Assembly: GCA_000320545.1 (NCBI GenBank)
Contig: ADNK01000399.1
Span: forward strand, 1 to 55,397
Reading direction: 5' to 3'
Length of the DNA stretch: 55,397 nt
DNA from: Bigelowiella natans CCMP2755
Taxonomy: Eukaryota > Protista > Cercozoa
Under the pieces are notes generated by a model. That model was not told the DNA's origin. It saw only the letters and a program-made list of their open reading frames with translations, and did no database searches. Shown here piece after piece: positions 8,101-16,728 of the stretch. The first letter of the stretch is position 1; each line of letters begins with the position of its first letter. A program made the translations under genes and the position numbers.

Positions 8101-9176
8101 TGACGATAGCGATCTCGGGATATGCTTTGATTAATGCCAGGATACGGTCCGGAACTGTCCTAAGCAGGTTGGATGTTGACGTGGAGTTCACACTAAACAC
8201 CCCAGTTTTCTGGAGGTACGTGTAGGCGGCGCCTCCGAGCTTCCTGTCATCATACATGTGTTTCAGACTCGGGATACGAGGTATACTCAAGGTTTCTACG
8301 TGTGAAATTGGCAATGCTTTCGGGGGTCGCATATCAACCCTCTCTGCCTCCAAAGTCTAACTAGCTTTTTAATTCAATACTCTGAGAAGGTAGAAATGGT
8401 GCAAATCGATGCGGAATGGGCTTTAAGACGGTCTCGTTTTGTTTCGTTTCATTATGTTCTTGGAGTTTTTAACACAAAAATGGAGAACCTGTAAGCGTCC
8501 GCGTCAAATCCTTTCCCTGTCAAAGCTTCGGGTCGGATTCCTAACTCTTTTGAAAAATGGCGATGTTCGCCGGTGTCTTGTCGTAGCCTCGGCCGGTCTT
8601 CTTCCCCCCTCCCTGGTTCAATATGATGGGGGATGGCGCTGGGGATATGAGGAGGAGGAACTACATTCGGCAAAGGAGACGGGGCAGCATGAGGCATGTT
8701 CGTTGGTGGAACTATATTGGAATAACTTCCTTGTGCAGCGAAGCTCGCTGGTTGGAAAGAGTTCGGATGCAACTGCTGCTGCTGCTGTTGGTGATGGTGA
8801 TATGGCGCCGGCGGAACCCCTCCGCCTCCACCCGGAATACTTGGGTTACCAAATGGGGGTTGCAATGAAGGAGGGGGGGTGGGATTAGGCGTTGGAGTTA
8901 GTTTTGGCTGGGAAGATCCTCCGAACGGCGACCATGAAAAACCGAGTTGTCTAGAGGGGGAAGATGGGCGTTTGAGTAAGGGCTATGAAACATGAGGCGT
9001 TTGATTCATCGGTTCAATTACGGTTGTTGCTGAATATGCAGATAGTCGTCGCTTTCGCTGTCATCGGAGAAGCCACGTGAGGGCTCCAACCCGTTTTTAT
9101 GACGGATGTAGAGGAGGGAACAAAGGCACACGAGCCAACACAGGAGGCGCGGTGCAGGCCGTCGCCATCGAATCAT
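5183..9176 (-). CDS. Multi-exon protein of unknown function with an N-terminal signal-peptide-like segment and a Pro/Gln-rich region
   Basis: Several long minus-strand ORF segments (8452-8865, 7856-8353, 6855-7607, 6536-6937, 6012-6596). The junctions checked can be joined in frame by GT-AG introns; the middle ones (~6000-7050) were not resolved. Start MIRWRRPAPRLLCWLVCLCSLLYIRH, inferred end ...RTLLPVHLL*. No family recognised; exact ends uncertain. Confidence 0.55.
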
Positions 9177-9643
9177 CCTCGCTATCTGAATACACATTTG
9201 TGAAAAATTGTCGTGCAGAGAATCTACGGGGGGGGGGACCTAATCCGGACAGCCAGCGCTCCCATGGAGTATCCCCCCGGCTCGAAACTTACTCCCTCTC
9301 CCTCCCGGTTCTGGTCCAAGTCAGCGGGCGTGAGAGATTCTGTGTCGTCTTGTCGCAGGGTGGAGGCGGTTGCGCGGGTACAGGTAATATGGCCATTTAC
9401 GGCCGTTTACCACAGCAAAAGGCATGTCTTTGTATAGAAAGGAATGAGATTCTGCGACAACGGCTTGCCATTTCATGAGATAAAAATTGCATGTCAAATA
9501 TAGGATATTTTCGGTACGAGACATGGCTTCTTTTGATGTCGCTCTGCCATGATTCTTCGTGCTCTCCGACGTCCCGCACAGGTCCTTGTGTAAGCTAACT
9601 TCCAGCGTCTCTGCGGCCTCGACGGGATGGGATCTGCTGGGTG

Positions 9644-10490
9644 ATGGCTCGATGGATTTCCCTGGGGCTCATTCTTGTGGCAGTGCTTGTCATAACACAG
9701 GATGGGGGCCCTGCGCGGAGCCACGAGGTTGAAGATAACTGGCAAACTAACTAACATGGCTCACAGCATGATTGTCACTGAACAAGCTTTGCCATCTCTT
9801 GTAGGCGATGCCCTCACTCAACTTGAGTCCAGATTCCCCACATGGGGGTTCATTCGGCCTTAGGGAACACAGCACCACAACCACCCTGGCGCCTAAGCAG
9901 AAGTCAATGACGTTGCCAGAGGTGCAGCTCCCAGATCTCTCTCGCTTATCCCTCTCAGCCCCTGGCATGCGGGGAAAGCGCATAAGACTTATGCCTGCCA
10001 AATCGGACAAATCGCAGGATGCCACAGCTCCAAGTGAGCTTAGAATGCTCAATGTTAAGGAGGTCTACGGTAATGGAATTATATACGAAATGTGATTGTG
10101 CATCCAGACGCGAATATAGATCCCCGAGAGCTCCTGGTAGGATTAGACCATGCTCAAAATTTTTAATGGGGACTATCACTATAATTTTCAGAAGAGCTAC
10201 GGGTACTGGAAAATAATGACCCACTCCCTCGGAAAGCTGCTGCGTTTGCCGCGTTTGGGAAGAAATTGGAGACGAAATACTATGTATTGCATAATTAATT
10301 TTATTGGACTATCTATCTACTTCCTACACGCCCACAACATATAGATGATTATTTTATATGAATTTTGCAGTCTCATCCCGTACCTCAGAAGCCCGCTCTC
10401 ACCAAGGTCAGAGTCAGTAAAACAGCAACATGAATGAAACCTATGGTTTTGCTATTCTGACTTGAAGTCAAGCAACTGACGTGCATGTGC

Positions 10491-10525
<35 letters not shown>

Positions 10526-11925
10526 AGCGGGTGTATGTATGTCGAGTTTCGTACAGAGTCTTTTGCATTTCAAACTGAGGAGATACCCATTTATATATTA
10601 GGTTGGCCTTTTCACCGTCGGCCGTGGTTTGAAGGCGCGCAAGAGGCTTCCTAGCATGCGGAATTTGACGACAGTTTTGAAATTGGCAACCGATTCTCCC
10701 ATTCGTCAAACTAGGGCTACAGAGGCCGCAGGTTGTATTATCCAACACAACGTTTGTGGATGTTGCTTGTCAGCATCATTGCGTAATGCAACACAGCGCG
10801 CTCGCCCTCTCCTCGCGCTCACGAATCTAAAATGCTCAATGGCGTCGTTTTGATTTATTTTGCAGAAGCTGTGCTACGCGCCCACAAAAGGCGAAATTTC
10901 ACCGAGGACCAAGCGGTGAGAGTGAGATTGAGGAAGAGGATGAGGGGGGGGGGGGGGGTTATCAAAAAAACGGTTCTGTTCCGAGCATGCGACTTGAATG
11001 AATTACTTCTCTTCCAAACATAGGTTTTCGTACAAATCGGGCTGAAAATTATGAAGGAAGGTTAATGCTCATCATAGTAGTGCACACATGACAGCCCTAG
11101 GACGATGGGCTTGGAACAATAATTCTCCTATTTTATCGAATGCTAATTTACAAGGACAATCGTCATCGTAATGAATGATGATGGATTTTAATCACGCTGG
11201 GTGGGTTGTCGTTGTTGTTATTCCAGTGCGAGTCGGGTTTGCGAAACGCGTATCTCCGCTCCGAATACGGCTCCCCCACTCGATCTGGAAAGCTCGTGAT
11301 CCGAAAATGTAGTGGCTTTGGGGGGGGGAGGGATCGGATTATGGGGATTATTTACCAGTTGGCCGGTCATGTGACCTCCTCGCATTCATATCGTAGGTGT
11401 GTTATCACCCGGCAGGAACACAGGCACTTTCTGCACCATGCCTTCGAAAAAACGGTCCTCGTCGCAGTTGTGGCTAGTTTGGCTGCGCATGCACGCCCGA
11501 ATCGTGAAATTACGATTGGTGTTCTTGCCGCGCGTTTCTACTTTACTTCAAACCATGAGCCTCGTTGATGTGTGTTTGTGTGTGTGTTTGCATCCGAAGG
11601 TAAGTGTTGTCGTTGACGTTCCTGGGTATGTGGGGAAACTAGGTATGTCAATACGAACACCAATCAACTACAAACACCAATCAAAGTTAGGAGAAGAAAG
11701 GGGAAACTGAGGGCAAGGCGAGGGTGGGGGATGATAGGGTATCGCAGCATTTCAATTCTAAAGACCATTCCTCTCCTCAGGAATCTCCTTCGCGAACCGT
11801 ACCATTGTGAGTGTGAAGAAAGGCCGGTAATACGTTGACATCGCTCGATCATTCGTCGTCGGTGGAATATTGATACATAGAGGGAGAAAGATATTTTATT
11901 CTAGAATAAACAGCAACGCACAAAC

Positions 11926-11996
<71 letters not shown>

Positions 11997-12842
11997 AGCA
12001 TGATATAAATAAAGACACACATAATCATCATCATCGTCATCAATACTTGTGAAAGGGTTGGGGATCGAATTGGGCTGCGGGAAGGTGATGTCATCTCCCA
12101 CATTGACAACAAGAGGACAAAGGTGCGAGGAAAGGAATAGGACTAGCTATCGAAACAACAGCATCAACAACAACACAGCAACAATATCACACGTTTAGCA
12201 AGCAATACAGTCAATAGCAGAGAAGCAAATGCCGAATTGAATGGCGGGAGGAGGTTTTTGTTAATTACGCTTGCGAGGAACGAATGCATATGCAGCGATG
12301 ACCAACTGTCAAAAAACGAATATTCGACTACAGCCTCTTCCTCATACTTCGTCTCCTAACTTCCCTTCACCCCCCCCCCCCCCTTCCATTCTCGATGCGT
12401 CATATAAAGACCCAAGACGAGTGCGTGGCGAAACTTGCACGGGTCAAGGGCGAAAACCGCCCCTACAAGATCGTAGTCAGGAGAGGTCGCTGTGATGTTG
12501 TTCGGCGTGTGTGGTGGGGCATGTATGTGCGTGCATGCGTTTCTGATTATTGTTGCTGTGCGTGTGCATCTTTGCTAGTGCTTCTAGCTACATCGTTATC
12601 ATCATCATCATCATCATCATCATCGTCATCGTTAACTTTCCCCATCCTCATCTCATCCTTTTTGAATTACTCTTTTATGTTCGATGGTAATGCTGCCGTG
12701 GTTGGTTGGTGCTGCTGGCAGTTGGGCGGTATGCTGACTCTCCGTACGTGAGGCGTGTGCTGAGCATAGAGAGACTGCGGATTGCTTATAAAACGTAAGT
12801 GCCCGTCAAATCATATATGATCAAATATGTATTTAATTCATG

Positions 12843-12938
<96 letters not shown>

Positions 12939-14414
12939 TGTCTAGATGAAGGAAAGTGATAACGGATTTGGGGGGGGGGGGGTGATGGTAATGTAGGAGG
13001 GTGATATATTAAATGCTAATGTTGTATTATCCTTATACCTTTGTTCCTTCTCCTCCCCCCCCTCTATCTTTATAATGGTTAGATTTCATTTGCGAAGAGA
13101 GTTGTTAGGCCAGTATGATATGTTTCTTACCGACAAGAAGGTGTACCGTTCATCATCCTGACAGAAAGAAACCAAGAGGGGGGGTAGAAGAAGGGAGAGA
13201 GAGAGAGGGAGAGAGAGAGAGAAAGAGAGAGAGGGAGAGAGGGTGAAGTCTGCATGTGCCAGGAGTGTAAAGTGCATACACTGCACAAAGAGGCCTACCA
13301 GCACGAGGGGGGGGGGAGAAGAGCCCACATTTTGCTTTTTCCGTGCATGTGGCCTACTACTGCCATCCTACGGTCAGCGTGAAGATGTATAAACAATTTT
13401 ATGGTTTCCAGCTCCCTTCCATGAAATCTGAGCGTTGTCTTTCGTGTCTCTCTGTTTTTTCACTGCTAATACGCATCTCGAAAAGATGACGCATCGAGTG
13501 GCTCAGGTCGCCAGTTAACATAATGATTCATCGCGCGTGTGTGTGTGTGTTGTGTTTTGATTGGAAAAATAAAGTTGTATTTCGCGTGTATTGGGACGGC
13601 AAATAAGTAGTAGCAGTGTAGTGCTGACTTACGACGACGATTTCATGGCCTCCTCCTCCTCCTTCTCCTCCTCCTTTGAATATCAGTTGATGGGAGCCAA
13701 ATTCATCCGGAAAAACCGGCTACCAATACCGATAAGGGTAGACGATGGATATGTGATGATGACGATAATGTTGATAGGAATAGTCCCTTTCCACCAGATG
13801 CATTGATGTATAATGTGCTTTGTTCCTCTGCCCCCTCCCCCCCTCCCTGCGATTTCTCCAGGTGTCGAAGAACCGAACGTCGGTTGACCAAGAGATTGCG
13901 GAAGTGCTGAAGTAAGATGAGGATGATTGTTGTATATATCTAGAGAGCAATGTTACACGTAAAAACTTCGATTGTCACTTGCAGAGTAAATATTTCATTA
14001 TGGAAATGGCGATTTGCTGCATTGCTTCTTCGCCCTCCTTGGCTGATATAGTATGTAATATGACCCCTAAATCTGCACAATTCTTCATGACTCTCAGTAC
14101 CACATTCGTGCAAGAAACAAACGGCGATTGTCTCACCGTCAGGTCCCTTTTGCAAATACATACATCTTAAAATATATTTCATAGAAATCATAGGATGTGT
14201 GCATTTTTGTGTTTGTGTGCGCGATTTCCTGCCATGAGTTGCCGCATTGTGTTGGGCAGAGTGGGCGACACAAATATGAGCGGAAAAGAACTTGCAGAAA
14301 ACATACGGTAGAAGAGCATTTCCTTCTCATGATATATCTACAAAACACATATAGAAACAACTACCCGCATAGATTTACACAGTCATATGTTATAACGTTA
14401 GCAAGCCAGCGCAA

Positions 14415-14476
<62 letters not shown>

Positions 14477-15334
14477 TTATATAACTTATTGGATTGTATG
14501 TACGTGCTGTTGTGTGTTGATATGTTATTCTGCAACAACCGATGTGTGTTTTTAGATGTGCAGTAGCGGCTGCTGTTCTAAAGCTCGTCCACGGAGGGGT
14601 AATAATAGCTTTGCTGCGCGCTCCTGAAGACGCGTCTAATCATTGCTTCGTGTCCCTAACACAAAACTTACTGCTTGATTTCTTTTGAACCGACCTGCTT
14701 TCCATGATGGGCTTTTCGCAGTGGAACGGCGTAATATCAATGAATGTGAAGGCGCATCGTGGCCCGGCCGTCCCTCTATTTCTGCAGGTAACCTACCGCC
14801 TCGGCGTTGGCGCTATCGAAATTGCATTTTAGCTCGGAAAACGTGGGAGGAAGGGGGGGGGGGGGGTTAGGGTTGGAAGTTAAGCGAGGGTTTGCAACAT
14901 GGCCAACATCTATCTCTATACAGGGCGAAGAAACGTTTTTAAGTCAGTATCAGGACGCGCAGCGAGAAAGAAAGGCCGGTGATTCGAAGGCAACAGCTGT
15001 GGAGAACACCGAGGACTCTAAGAACTCACAAGGAGGCCTGCTAGAGCTGTTGAAGGGGAAGTTGTCTCTATGGCCAAAGCCGTCATCACGAGAGAAAAAT
15101 GGCGACGATATTCCCGAGAATGCTCACAAAGAGGAACAGCAGCTACAAGGTGGTAGCCTTATGATAAACGAGCAGATTCAGATCCCGGATTCTAGCAAAC
15201 TGCAAAAACAGCAGCACGGGAAGGAGCATGCTTTAACTCAGGGTCTTGCTGAATTCCGTGCAGATAACGGTGCGACTCATGACGAGACGAAATTCGCCCT
15301 GGTAGATCAAGTTGCAGCGACAGCAGTGGCGTAG
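9644..15334 (+). CDS. RSL1D1: Ribosomal L1 domain-containing protein (RSL1D1/Cic1/Utp30-like) with an inserted PDZ domain and an N-terminal signal peptide; about 20 small exons
   Basis: Spliced exons give L1-domain motifs VFVQIGLKIM, PLRIRLPHSIW...MCVIT, VRRVLSIERLRIAYKTFHLRRELLGQYDMFLTDKK, LMGAKFIRKNRLPIPI, GDCLTVRVGDTNMSGKELAENI, WNGVISMNVKAHRGPAVPLF. Junctions are GT-AG and phase-compatible. Last exon is 14924-15334. Confidence 0.8.
11600..12485 (+). other. PDZ domain encoded by four exons (11600-11642, 11781-11826, 12056-12122, 12410-12485)
   Basis: Spliced peptide VVDVPGYVGKLGISFANRTIVSVKKGRVGDRIGLREGDVISHIDNKRTKTQDECVAKLARVKGENRPYKIVVRR. It has the KLGISF carboxylate-binding loop, GLxxGDxIxxI and the terminal helix-strand of PDZ domains. 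Confidence 0.8.
12847..12933. repeat. Compound microsatellite (TA)n(TG)n(AG)n, intronic
   Basis: Directly visible in an intron of the L1/PDZ gene. Confidence 0.95.
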
Positions 15335-15499
15335 CACATATCCCAGTAATGAGCCAAACAGTGCTCTTAGATTGATACGCACTCAGCACAAAAATAGTAT
15401 CGCCACCTCCCATAAGCAGAAAGAACATGTTTGGCAGTGCATGCAAGATCGTCATGTTCATTCTTACGAGGTTCGTCCGTCATCTTGCAACGACTGACT

Positions 15500-16250
15500 G
15501 GTTTAACACTGCACGCGTTTCGATGTCACGTTGTTCATGCATGGTTTGGGAGCAGATCTTGATCATTCAGACACCGTGTACATGATGCACAAATTGAACA
15601 TATGCACACATCAATTTTGTTGCACATGCCATCATTGCTGCTTGTTGTTTTGCTAATCATCGGATGAGTGCAATGCCTGTGGCTTCTCTGCCACTGTGAC
15701 ACGCGCTTGGGCCAACACATGCGTGCCAAAACTTCATTGGCTACGAGTCTAGAAATGGCTAGTTTTCAGAAGCAGGTTGGTGCATGTTTCGCATGCTCAC
15801 ATACTAGCATGCTGGCATGGCAATCAGTGATGATTTGGCTGCAACGATGCTAGCTACTAGAGCTAGCTAGCTAGCGATGGGCAAATCATCATTGTGGCTG
15901 CGATGTCGATTGCAATTGAACATCAAGAAGGGACAGAGCACCAACCAGTTGAAAATGCATGCATCACCATGTCTCATCATATCTGCGTCAAGTGCGCCCC
16001 TCTAGCCCTGTCTAGCTAGCTAGCTGTCTGGCTGCCCAGTGTGACACTGGCTGTGGCCTGACTTGTCCACAAATCCCTCTCAACTTGCATGGACTTGAGA
16101 TCGCATCTGAAACTCTAGTTTAAAAAAACAAGGAAAAACGGGGATCGAGGGCATGCCTGACACGTCAGACATGCAGGAGCGGGGCCAGGCCAGCAGGACT
16201 AGAGTGTGGGGCTACGATGGCGACGGGCGCGATCAACACTAGCTAGCTAG
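15500..16250. other. Palindrome-rich intergenic island B
   Basis: (CTAG)n at ~15865, ~16012 and ~16239. One-mismatch 12-mers at 15800 and 15808. Lies 3' of the gene ending at 15334. Confidence 0.8.
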
Positions 16251-16728
16251 AACGGCAATTGTCTCCACTCCCCACGAAGACGGAGAAGGCGACACAACGA
16301 AAGAGAAGAATCAATGCAATGTGGCCCCTACGGTTTCTCAATGTGGATCCTGTCTGGGTTTCTGTTGCATGCCTGCTTCCTCCGAAGGGGCAGAGCTCTG
16401 CCCATCTCTTCTCCTCCCTCGCAACCTCTCTCCTGGAATCTTGGAAATCGCGCGTGGCCGGAAAAAATCGCAACACAGCGGTCTTCCAGGTAATCAGCTC
16501 TTTCGCTAGGAAATGTAGGGCATTTTTGCAAGAACTATTGAGAATTACGGGCGTTCTCCTGTTCAAGAATCTCTTCTTTCTGTATTCGGAAATTCCGTTG
16601 TCGCAATTACGTGATTGGGATGCGTTTACCAAGGAATTATGGGCATTTGAAAGAAAGAGTCGCGAAAACCCCTCCCCTCCTGCGTCCCTCTCGCGCCTTA
16701 TCTCCGCCCACTCTTTTTTGGCCCCTCC

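What the first reader, a model, noticed from the sequence alone, without database searches (positions are those of the whole stretch)
11226..14786. PDZ domain inserted inside a ribosomal-L1 (RSL1D1-like) domain
Seen after manual splicing: the L1-domain sequence ...PHSIWKARDPKMCVITRQEHRHFLHHAFEKT is interrupted by a complete ~80-aa PDZ domain (11600-12485) and resumes with ...YVRRVLSIERLRIAYKTFHLRRELL. Introns bound the PDZ module on both sides, although their phases differ (0 and 1). RSL1D1/Cic1/Utp30 are ribosome-biogenesis factors, and I know of no PDZ-bearing form. The gene is invisible in the ORF track because its exons are tiny, including a 21-nt exon at 13486-13506.
Basis: partly seen in the sequence, partly recalled or inferred. 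Interest (0 to 1): 0.72.

Follow-up and report, generated by a model that had tools for sequence, protein, structure and literature searches.

The report
PDZ domain inside ribosome-assembly L1 protein
A gene of the alga Bigelowiella natans, confirmed by spliced RNA, encodes a ribosome-assembly-type L1 protein with a whole PDZ domain inserted in its middle, an unreported layout shared with two environmental relatives and predicted to add a protein-docking site.

Summary
The window comes from Bigelowiella natans, since one exon is 100% identical to named records of that species.

- **Transcript:** Spliced contigs from 6 runs in 6 studies run as one molecule from about 9566 to about 15515. They pass through the L1 exons, the four PDZ exons (11600-12485) and the 21-nt exon. 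My 23-exon model matches the contig length exactly, 2031 nt.
- **PDZ is obligatory:** Skipping the PDZ exons (232 nt) shifts the frame and gives a stop after 9 codons.
- **L1 part:** It belongs to the Cic1/Utp30/RSL1D1 family by Pfam, by PDB sequence search and by Foldseek on an orthologue model.
- **Insert is a PDZ:** A profile of the insert hits only PDZ proteins in the PDB. The orthologue's insert folds with pLDDT 89.5 and matches Scribble PDZ3 at TM 0.85. Pfam PDZ scores stay below the curated cut-offs.
- **Distribution:** Two unnamed environmental proteins carry the same insert at the same site. The other 94 real homologues that span the site have an 8-41 residue linker there.
- **Literature:** I found no paper describing this layout.

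Function is inferred: a pre-ribosome factor with an added peptide-docking module. A hydrophobic N-terminus raises an untested periplastid or nucleomorph targeting idea. I rate it a new variant of a known kind, of moderate interest.

The parts
9566..9727 (+). Exon 1. Contig 5' ends lie at 9566-9569. A short uORF starts at ATG 9627 and its stop overlaps the main ATG at 9644. The CDS begins at 9644 and opens with a hydrophobic N-terminus.
   Evidence: Contig starts and joint 9727>9805 (GT..AG) in X8, X11 and X18. Sequence. Hydrophobicity.
9805..10731 (+). Exons 2-5 (9805-10069, 10192-10283, 10371-10406, 10602-10731). They encode an N-terminal extension of about 170 aa ahead of the L1 domain, which begins at the end of exon 5.
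   Evidence: Joints in 6 runs. Open frame. Part of the extension is conserved with P0003.
10866..11454 (+). Exons 6-9 (10866-10915, 11024-11060, 11227-11308, 11397-11454). They encode the N-terminal part of the L1 domain: helix alpha1, strands beta1-beta3 and helix alpha2 (aa about 200-278).
   Evidence: Joints. Alignment to Cic1/Utp30 homologues. 47% identity to P0003. The matching part of the P0003 model has pLDDT 82-95.
11600..12485 (+). Exons 10-13 (11600-11642, 11781-11826, 12056-12122, 12410-12485; 232 nt). They encode the inserted PDZ domain, aa 279-355.
   Evidence: Joints in 6 runs; joint 11454>11600 inferred from contig coordinates. PDZ profile hits. Fold of the orthologous insert. 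Skipping gives a frameshift.
12722..13140 (+). Exons 14-15 (12722-12794, 13083-13140). The L1 domain resumes with strand beta4, helix alpha3 and strand beta5.
   Evidence: Joints 12485>12722 and 12794>13083. Alignment.
13486..13506 (+). Exon 16, a 21-nt microexon encoding 7 residues inside L1 domain II.
   Evidence: Loose-end letters after 13140 in X8, X11 and X18. P0001 begins with it. The length budget fits.
13687..14787 (+). Exons 17-22 (13687-13737, 13862-13911, 14098-14142, 14260-14307, 14556-14598, 14722-14787). They encode the rest of L1 domain II and the C-terminal half of domain I, up to about aa 507.
   Evidence: Joints 13737>13862, 13911>14098 and 14142>14260. The other boundaries rest on P0001 colinearity and the exact length match. 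Pfam Ribosomal_L1.
14924..15515 (+). Exon 23. It encodes a poorly conserved C-terminal tail, with the TAG stop at 15332-15334, and carries at least 181 nt of 3' UTR.
   Evidence: Contig pieces 14921-15515. ORF end. Stop codon. 100% match to P0001.

Best explanation
This is a 23-exon nuclear gene of Bigelowiella natans whose spliced mRNA encodes a 643-aa Cic1/Utp30/RSL1D1-family ribosomal-L1-domain protein with a complete PDZ domain inserted in the loop between helix alpha2 and strand beta4 of L1 domain II. It likely acts as a pre-ribosome assembly factor, and the PDZ would give it an extra docking site for another protein's C-terminal tail.

**Shown:**
- The exon structure.
- A single transcript that carries all parts.
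- The obligatory nature of the PDZ exons.
- The family of the L1 part.
- The PDZ nature of the insert.
- The insert's presence at the same site in two other, unnamed sequences.

**Inferred:**
- That the L1 part still binds a pre-rRNA duplex as Cic1 and Utp30 do.
- That the PDZ binds a peptide.
- The cellular compartment.

A PDZ can sit in a surface loop without breaking the host fold because its first and last strands lie side by side.
For: **Transcript**
- Contigs of X1, X5 and X7 and of X8, X11 and X18, from 6 studies, skip every predicted intron at GT..AG.
- In each run one record covers the L1 N-part, the PDZ exons and the L1 C-part. In X1, for example, 11225-11308 is record 771-854 and 12406-12483 is record 1065-1142.
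- The model's length equals the contig length, 2031 nt.
- All 22 introns are GT..AG. The PDZ exons total 232 nt, and skipping them gives a stop after 9 codons.

**L1 family**
- Pfam Ribosomal_L1 scores 58.1 bits on P0001 and 53 bits on P0002, against a cut-off of 32.2.
- The best PDB sequence hit is S. pombe C8F11.04 in pre-60S particles at 2.3e-8. The best uL1 hit is 2e-5.
- The AlphaFold model of orthologue P0003 has L1 parts at pLDDT above 90.
- Its best Foldseek hits are Cic1/Utp30/RSL1D1-family chains of pre-60S and 90S particles, with 8pv3_CB at 1.9e-17 and TMt about 0.7.
- 8 of the 10 invariant or nearly invariant family positions are kept in B. natans.

**PDZ**
- Pfam PDZ_6 hits at 9.1e-5 on P0002, which holds only 3 of the 4 PDZ exons.
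- On P0003 the hits are PDZ_6 at 5.1e-5, PDZ at 9.6e-4 and PDZ_2 at 6.7e-3.
- The 3-sequence insert profile hits 60 of 60 listed PDZ proteins in the PDB, best 1.5e-8.
- An in-box HMM that includes the full B. natans insert hits only the multi-PDZ protein P0032 (best stretch 1.2e-8) and the family's own records (P0002, P0003, P0004) among 153 proteins.
- The isolated P0003 insert folds at pLDDT 89.5 with strand and helix order bA-bB-bC-aA-bD-bE-aB-bF.
- 50 of 50 listed Foldseek hits are PDZ domains, led by Scribble PDZ3 at TM 0.85 and rmsd 1.4 A.
- A K-L-G-[IV] loop sits just before strand bB, where the GLGF carboxylate-binding loop lies. It is present in both sequences that cover that position.

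**Conservation**
- P0003 and P0004 carry a gapless insert of 77-78 aa at the same site.
- With B. natans they form a clade with support 1.0.
- Of 96 rows spanning the site, P0003 has 101 residues between the flanks, the mis-spliced model P0002 has 31 and the other 94 have 8-41; the median over all 96 is 19.
Against: - All Pfam PDZ scores are below the curated cut-offs: 22.6 and 23.4 against 27, and 19.9 against 23.2.
- In the full-length P0003 model the insert has low confidence, with pLDDT 39-78. Its position relative to the L1 domain is therefore unknown.
- The confident PDZ model is of the orthologue's insert, not the B. natans one. That insert is only 26% identical to it, and the alignment behind the model holds 6 sequences, 3 of them bacterial PDZ domains.
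- The PDZ part is less conserved (26-38% identity) than the L1 parts (46-50%).
- No experiment or data set here shows pre-ribosome association, RNA binding or peptide binding.
- The clade sits on a long stem of 0.68, which would also fit a changed function.
- P0003 has N in place of the nearly invariant K of domain I.
- The hydrophobic N-terminus is unexpected for a nucleolar factor.
- The runs are labelled 'RNA?' by guess, and the one run on record as RNA (X21) gave almost no depth here.
- Contigs cannot exclude rare isoforms.
Confidence: 0.6

Rival explanations
1. Same protein, different place. The hydrophobic N-terminus would act as a signal peptide followed by a transit-peptide-like stretch. 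The protein would then be imported into the periplastidal compartment and nucleomorph of the secondary plastid and serve assembly of the endosymbiont's 80S ribosomes. A separate canonical Cic1/Utp30 homologue would serve the host nucleolus.
For: - The first in-frame ATG of the transcript (9644) is followed by the most hydrophobic 15-mer of the protein, aa 4-18, with a Kyte-Doolittle mean of 2.69. Next comes a stretch rich in S, L and P with net charge +3.
- Contig 5' ends at 9566-9569 place this ATG inside the mRNA.
- P0003 has its most hydrophobic 15-mer aligned to the same place.
- Nucleus-encoded proteins bound for the plastid complex of B. natans need a signal peptide plus a transit-peptide-like leader, and the nucleomorph genome lacks many housekeeping genes (passages of PMC3542566).
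- The clade is divergent, which would fit a paralogue.
Against: - No signal-peptide predictor was available, so the call rests on hydropathy alone.
- A uORF precedes ATG 9644, and a second in-frame ATG at 9808 is the start used by the public model P0002.
- In P0003 the hydrophobic stretch lies at residues 58-72, not at the N-terminus.
- I could not show a second, canonical homologue in B. natans, because no genome is held.
- The origin of the clade could not be told, because the neighbours in the tree are unnamed.
Confidence: 0.2
2. The insert keeps a PDZ fold but no longer binds peptides. It would act only as a structural spacer or an added RNA or protein contact surface on domain II of the L1 fold.
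For: - The PDZ part evolves faster than the L1 parts, at 26-38% against 46-50% identity.
- Pfam scores are below threshold.
- The insert lies next to helices alpha2 and alpha3, which contact RNA in Utp30 (passages of PMC5689012).
Against: - Insert length is kept without a single gap between B. natans and P0003.
- The K-L-G-[IV] loop at the carboxylate-binding position is kept in both sequences that cover it.
- The one variant seen in the PDZ exons (12451 C>T, X18) is third-codon-position and synonymous, by my reading of the sequence.
Confidence: 0.2
3. Artefact or optional cassette. The PDZ exons would belong to another gene, to a chimeric assembly, or to a minor alternative isoform.
For: - The runs laid are assembled contigs, which drop rare variants. 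Their RNA label is a guess.
- Joint 11454>11600 is not listed directly.
- Intron-retaining contigs exist further downstream.
Against: - Six runs from six studies give the same contig structure.
- Skipping the cassette frameshifts.
- Two independent environmental proteins have the same continuous ORF through L1-N (P0003 only), PDZ and L1-C.
Confidence: 0.03

Closest known systems
Cic1/Nsa3 (yeast), RSL1D1/CSIG (human), Utp30 and the single Utp30/Cic1 homologue of other eukaryotes (e.g. S. pombe C8F11.04)
   Same: - It has the two-domain L1 fold: domain I is built from the N- and C-terminal parts, and a Rossmann-like domain II sits between them.
- The best sequence hit among solved structures is 8esq_K at 2.3e-8.
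- The best fold hits for the orthologue model are 8pv3_CB, 8fkp_SL, 6rxt_UZ and 8esq_K.
- 8 of 10 conserved family positions are kept.
- It has a long, poorly conserved C-terminal tail.
   Different: - A 77-aa PDZ domain replaces the usual 8-41 residue linker between strands beta3 and beta4.
- It has an N-terminal extension of about 200 aa with a hydrophobic start.
- It sits on a long branch.
- Pre-ribosome association is untested.
Ribosomal protein uL1 (L1/L10A)
   Same: It matches the same Pfam family, PF00687, and has the same fold. Hits are 2e-5 by sequence and about 1e-10 by fold.
   Different: The match is weaker than to the Cic1/Utp30 family. This protein has long N- and C-terminal extensions and the PDZ insert, so it is not a structural ribosomal protein by these comparisons.
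Canonical PDZ domains (e.g. Scribble PDZ3, DLG1 PDZ1), and by sequence the PDZ domains of site-2 protease and DegP/DegQ/HtrA
   Same: - It has six strands and two helices in the canonical order.
- TM is 0.85 and rmsd 1.4 A to 6xa6_A.
- The profile E-value to the Aquifex site-2 protease PDZ tandem is 1.5e-8.
- An x-Phi-G-Phi loop precedes strand bB.
   Different: It sits inside another domain rather than in a string of modules. It scores below the Pfam gathering cut-offs. Its ligand is unknown.
Alpha-syntrophin, where a PDZ domain is inserted into a split PH domain
   Same: A PDZ is inserted into a loop of another globular domain. This is possible because the PDZ termini lie close together.
   Different: The host fold, the biology and the lineage are all different. 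This is an analogy of architecture only.
Public gene model of this locus (P0002, named as a JGI/EukProt B. natans record, 484 aa)
   Same: It is the same locus. It already joins 3 of the 4 PDZ exons to the C-terminal half of the L1 domain.
   Different: - It skips exons 11024-11454 and 12410-13506.
- It reads into an intron after 13737.
- It starts at ATG 9808.

Neither domain is therefore complete in it.

Membership tests
Ribosomal_L1 domain (Pfam PF00687) | Profile score above the curated cut-off | tested here: met
   P0001 scores 58.1 bits and P0002 53 bits against a cut-off of 32.2, over profile positions 99-198 and 104-198. Orthologue P0003 scores 100.5 bits over positions 62-197. The N-terminal third of the profile is not matched by hmmscan because the insert splits the domain. 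It is seen by alignment and by fold.
Ribosomal_L1 domain (Pfam PF00687) | Two-domain fold, with domain I made of the N- and C-terminal parts and interrupted by a Rossmann-like domain II (as described in PMC5689012, passages) | tested here: met
   Tested on orthologue P0003, not on the B. natans protein itself. The model's L1 parts have pLDDT above 90, and TMt is 0.67-0.77 to solved family members.
Cic1/Utp30/RSL1D1 subfamily of L1-domain proteins | Closer to Cic1/Utp30-family proteins than to uL1 | tested here: met
   By sequence, 2.3e-8 to S. pombe C8F11.04 against 2e-5 to uL1. By fold, ranks 1-24 are chains K, CB, SL, UZ, SN, u and RI of pre-60S and 90S particles, ahead of the crystal structure of uL1. 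That these chains are the Cic1/Utp30/RSL1D1 proteins is my reading from the 8esq_K and 5jpq_k names and from recall.
Cic1/Utp30/RSL1D1 subfamily of L1-domain proteins | Association with pre-60S or 90S particles and binding of an rRNA or spacer duplex by the concave face of domain I | not testable with these tools
   No experimental data. Only the conservation of 8 of 10 family positions speaks to it, including the nearly invariant K of the last strands of domain I in B. natans.
PDZ domain | Pfam PDZ-clan profile above the curated cut-off | tested here: inconclusive
   All scores are below cut-off: PDZ_6 at 22.6 bits (P0002, truncated insert) and 23.4 bits (P0003) against 27, PDZ at 19.9 against 23.2, and PDZ_2 at 17.1 against 27. 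Three PDZ models hit the same stretch and nothing else does. A family profile of the insert reaches 1.5e-8 against solved PDZ proteins, with 60 of 60 listed being PDZ.
PDZ domain | Fold with strands bA-bF and helices aA and aB in canonical order | tested here: met
   Tested on the P0003 insert. pLDDT is 89.5 and pTM 0.73. 50 of 50 listed Foldseek hits are PDZ domains, best TM 0.85. The B. natans insert aligns to it without gaps.
PDZ domain | Carboxylate-binding loop (GLGF-type, x-Phi-G-Phi) before strand bB | tested here: met
   K-L-G-I in B. natans and K-L-G-V in P0003, ending at the first residue of strand bB of the model. P0004 is truncated there. The GLGF rule itself is recalled, not taken from a call.
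PDZ domain | Binding of a C-terminal or internal peptide in the bB/aB groove | not testable with these tools
   No ligand is known. The proteins' own C-termini are not conserved, so self-binding has no support.

The most novel reading that the evidence does not exclude
The PDZ-bearing L1 protein is a host-nucleus-encoded ribosome-assembly factor that is imported, through a signal peptide plus transit-peptide-like leader, into the periplastidal compartment and nucleomorph. There it builds the endosymbiont's own 80S ribosomes. The PDZ would be a lineage-specific adaptor that replaces protein contacts lost from the reduced nucleomorph assembly machinery.
Probability: 0.15. Interest if true: 0.75.

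Novelty: new variant of a known kind. Interest (0 to 1): 0.5.

Why it matters
**For ribosome biology.** Cic1/Utp30/RSL1D1 proteins are conserved scaffolds of early ribosome assembly, and their L1 fold is usually left intact. This locus shows a transcript-verified case, kept in at least three divergent sequences, where a complete peptide-binding module has been inserted into the Rossmann-like domain of that fold. It gives a natural test of how assembly factors gain new protein contacts. It also gives a concrete handle on ribosome assembly in a poorly studied lineage, since the PDZ ligand can be looked for.

**For endosymbiosis, if the targeting idea holds.** If the N-terminus proves to be a targeting leader, the protein would be one of few candidates for the imported machinery that builds nucleomorph-encoded ribosomes.

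**For annotation.** The public gene model is wrong. Genes like this one, with exons of 21-130 nt, are missed or broken by ORF-based and ab initio methods.

Tried and rejected
- **Whole genome:** none is held. I could not look for a second Cic1/Utp30 gene in B. natans.
- **The look-up of sequencing runs:** no RNA holder listed. The evidence comes from laying the contigs.
- **Raw RNA run X21:** 47 reads laid and almost no depth on the gene, so it gives no verdict.
- **X20:** nothing laid.
- **The search for homologous proteins:** P0002 gave no hit. The exon 2 translation with longer lengths gave no hit. No full-length B. natans protein was therefore available to the tools.
- **Spliced protein:** the 643-aa product was built only inside scripts. 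It was not scanned against Pfam or folded. Orthologue P0003 stood in for it.
- **Metagenome-contig scan with A3:** 171 pattern matches, none confirmed.
- **Genome-contig scan with the insert profile:** only 3 bacterial PDZ loci. They were used as alignment rows.
- **Full-length AlphaFold model:** the insert has low confidence, so its orientation was not read.
- **ESM Atlas:** best score 0.86, with PDZ clusters. This is a lead only.
- **Tree neighbours and top hits:** looked up for names. No taxon labels came back apart from one amoebozoan, so the origin of the clade is open.
- **Supplements:** none are held for PMC3542566. The one file held for PMC5635652 does not contain the model's id. Published target-prediction lists that I could not see may already classify this protein.
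- **Rfam on 9000-16500:** nothing near any gathering score, only repeat-driven miRNA-like noise. There is no sign of an intronic snoRNA.
- **tblastn of the insert against the window:** no second PDZ copy.
- **Earlier findings of this scan:** none.
- **Complex prediction:** not used, because I have no candidate ligand.

Full report
**Source and gene**

The last exon of the gene is 100% identical to a 244-aa transcriptome ORF, P0001. P0001 shares a 90% cluster with P0002, a 484-aa record named as a Bigelowiella natans gene model. The window is therefore nuclear DNA of this chlorarachniophyte alga. No whole genome is held for it here.

**Transcript evidence**

I laid eight coded public runs on the region: one raw-read RNA run and seven runs of assembled contigs.

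- In X1, X5 and X7 and in X8, X11 and X18, from six different studies, contigs of up to 2193 nt lie on the + strand. They skip each predicted intron at GT..AG.
- One record per run carries the exons of the N-terminal L1 part, the four PDZ exons and the following L1 exons in series.
- X20 gave nothing. The raw RNA run X21 gave 47 reads with almost no depth over the gene.
- The runs are labelled RNA only by guess. Contigs that lack 20 or so GT..AG introns must nevertheless derive from spliced RNA.

Two points are indirect.

- Joint 11454>11600 is never listed, because the tool masks the (GT)n repeat at 11563-11596. The record coordinates leave exactly 101 nt for exons 9 and 10. Only one GT..AG pair that gives valid exons fits, namely 11454 and 11600.
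- The 21-nt exon cannot be aligned as a piece of its own. In X8, X11 and X18 the letters that follow 13140 are those 21 nt and then the start of exon 13687. P0001 also starts with this exon and runs on colinearly.

The full model has 23 exons.

- The model transcript from 9803 to 15515 is 2031 nt, exactly the contig length.
- All 22 introns are GT..AG, 77-345 nt long.
- Internal exons are 21-130 nt (exon 2 is 265 nt).
- The CDS runs from ATG 9644 to TAG 15332-15334 and encodes 643 aa.

**The PDZ exons are not optional**

The four exons total 232 nt. A transcript without them would shift frame and stop after 9 codons. No skipping joint was listed in either lay. Four joints were not shown, so I could not inspect them.

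**The L1 part**

- Pfam Ribosomal_L1 is above its cut-off on P0001 and P0002.
- Among solved structures, the best sequence match is S. pombe C8F11.04 at 2.3e-8, a Cic1/Utp30-family chain of nascent 60S particles. It ranks ahead of uL1 at 2e-5.
- A whole-library HMMER search with P0002 gave 223 hits at E<=1e-3. The nine sampled by Pfam, apart from the multi-PDZ protein P0032, are all L1-domain proteins. Several are named 'ribosome biogenesis protein UTP30' by their source.
- B. natans keeps 8 of the 10 invariant or nearly invariant positions of a 126-sequence alignment.
- According to passages of PMC5689012, most eukaryotes have a single Utp30/Cic1 homologue. Domain I binds an RNA duplex with its concave face, and domain II is a Rossmann-like fold inserted between strands beta2 and beta7.

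**Orthologues with the same insert**

Two unnamed environmental proteins carry the same architecture: P0003 (668 aa, 3.6e-26) and P0004 (384 aa, N-terminally truncated, 3.6e-17). An insert of 77-78 aa without gaps sits between the conserved beta3/alpha2 segment and strand beta4.

Identity to B. natans by region:

| Region | Identity to B. natans |
|---|---|
| L1 parts | 46-50% |
| Insert | 26-38% |
| N-terminal extension | 24% |
| C-terminal tail | 18-23% |

- In a FastTree of 107 rows the three form a clade with support 1.0 on a stem of 0.68. The rows were the 105 alignment rows with at least 150 of 209 L1 columns, the in-box B. natans product used in place of P0001 and P0002, and the partial P0004, which was kept.
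- Of the 126 aligned sequences, 96 cover both flanks of the site. P0003 has 101 residues between the flanks and the mis-spliced model P0002 has 31. The other 94 have 8-41. The median over all 96 is 19.
- The insert HMM finds nothing in any other L1 protein of the set.

**The insert is a PDZ domain**

- Pfam PDZ-clan models hit it, and nothing else, but always below the gathering score.
- A profile of the three inserts, searched against all PDB sequences, lists 60 of 60 PDZ-containing proteins. They include the site-2 protease PDZ tandem at 1.5e-8 (best single stretch 0.0014), DegQ at 2e-7, then DegP, HtrA, X11/Mint and syntenin.
- In the full-length AlphaFold model of P0003 the L1 parts are confident and the insert is not.
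- The insert alone, with a 6-row alignment, folds at pLDDT 89.5 and pTM 0.73 with the canonical PDZ order of strands and helices.
- All 50 listed Foldseek hits are PDZ domains, led by Scribble PDZ3 at TM 0.85 and rmsd 1.4 A.
- A K-L-G-[IV] loop lies where the GLGF loop is expected. The GLGF rule is recalled, not taken from a call.
- The full model's best fold matches are Cic1/Utp30/RSL1D1-family chains of fungal and human pre-60S and 90S particles.

**What I could not do**

The spliced B. natans product could not be handed to the family, fold or search tools, so all fold statements rest on P0003. The orientation of the PDZ on the L1 body is unknown.

**Mechanism (inferred)**

The L1 body likely still docks on a pre-rRNA duplex, as Cic1 does on ITS2 and Utp30 on helix 41. 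The PDZ emerges from the alpha2-beta4 loop of domain II. It would bind the C-terminal tail of another assembly factor or ribosomal protein, adding a protein tether next to an RNA-contacting face. The proteins' own C-termini are not conserved, so I do not propose self-binding.

**An open lead**

- The first in-frame ATG (9644) opens with the most hydrophobic 15-mer of the protein. An S/L/P-rich stretch follows.
- P0003 has an aligned hydrophobic stretch, but at residues 58-72.
- In B. natans, proteins sent to the plastid complex need a signal peptide plus a transit-peptide-like leader (PMC3542566, passages).

This fits a periplastid or nucleomorph destination. The support is hydropathy only, and a uORF and a second ATG at 9808 complicate the start. 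I give it about 0.15-0.2.

**Novelty**

Three full-text searches found no paper that links a PDZ domain with an L1-domain assembly factor or that cites this gene model. The public model already fuses fragments of both domains, but it is mis-spliced. I rate this a new variant of a known kind: a real, conserved domain insertion of moderate interest whose function is untested.

Noticed in passing
window 9805-15334 (compared with P0002): The public gene model is mis-spliced. It starts at ATG 9808, omits exons 11024-11454 and 12410-13506, and reads a few codons into the intron after 13737. Both the L1 and the PDZ domains are truncated in it.
   Followed up: yes
window 9627-9646: A five-codon uORF sits in the 5' leader, and its TGA overlaps the main ATG (TGATG). 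This may affect which start codon is used, 9644 or 9808.
   Followed up: partly
window 9644-9727: The N-terminus predicted from the first ATG is strongly hydrophobic (aa 4-18, Kyte-Doolittle mean 2.69). It looks like a signal peptide or membrane anchor, which is unusual for a nucleolar factor.
   Followed up: partly
window 13141-13686: Contigs retain parts of the two introns that flank the 21-nt exon: X1 at 13250-13411, and X7 at 13307-13502 and 13491-13642. The transcriptome ORF P0001 starts at the microexon's ATG. Together these suggest that splicing around the microexon is inefficient.
   Followed up: partly
window 12451: Run X18 reads T for C in PDZ exon 13. This is a third-codon-position, synonymous change by my reading. 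X18 also has 3 other letters in 9566-9725, so it may be another strain.
   Followed up: no
window 10930-10950, 11915-12003, 12838-12975, 13180-13250, 14430-14470: The introns are full of microsatellites ((CA)n, (GA)n, (TA)n) and long G or C homopolymers. These caused the read-laying tool to mask stretches and produced weak miRNA-like Rfam noise.
   Followed up: partly
window 9300-9376 and 15946-16300: Contigs lie on the minus strand right beside both ends of the gene: X11 record 1, 1455 nt, and X1 record 3. Neighbouring genes on the other strand therefore sit within a few hundred bases.
   Followed up: no
P0003 residue 529: Orthologue P0003 has N where nearly all family members, including B. 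natans and P0004, have the conserved K in the last strands of domain I.
   Followed up: no
B. natans aa about 95-199; P0003 aa about 160-240: Part of the long N-terminal extension is conserved between B. natans and P0003 and is predicted helical in the P0003 model. It has no Pfam match and is of unknown role.
   Followed up: no
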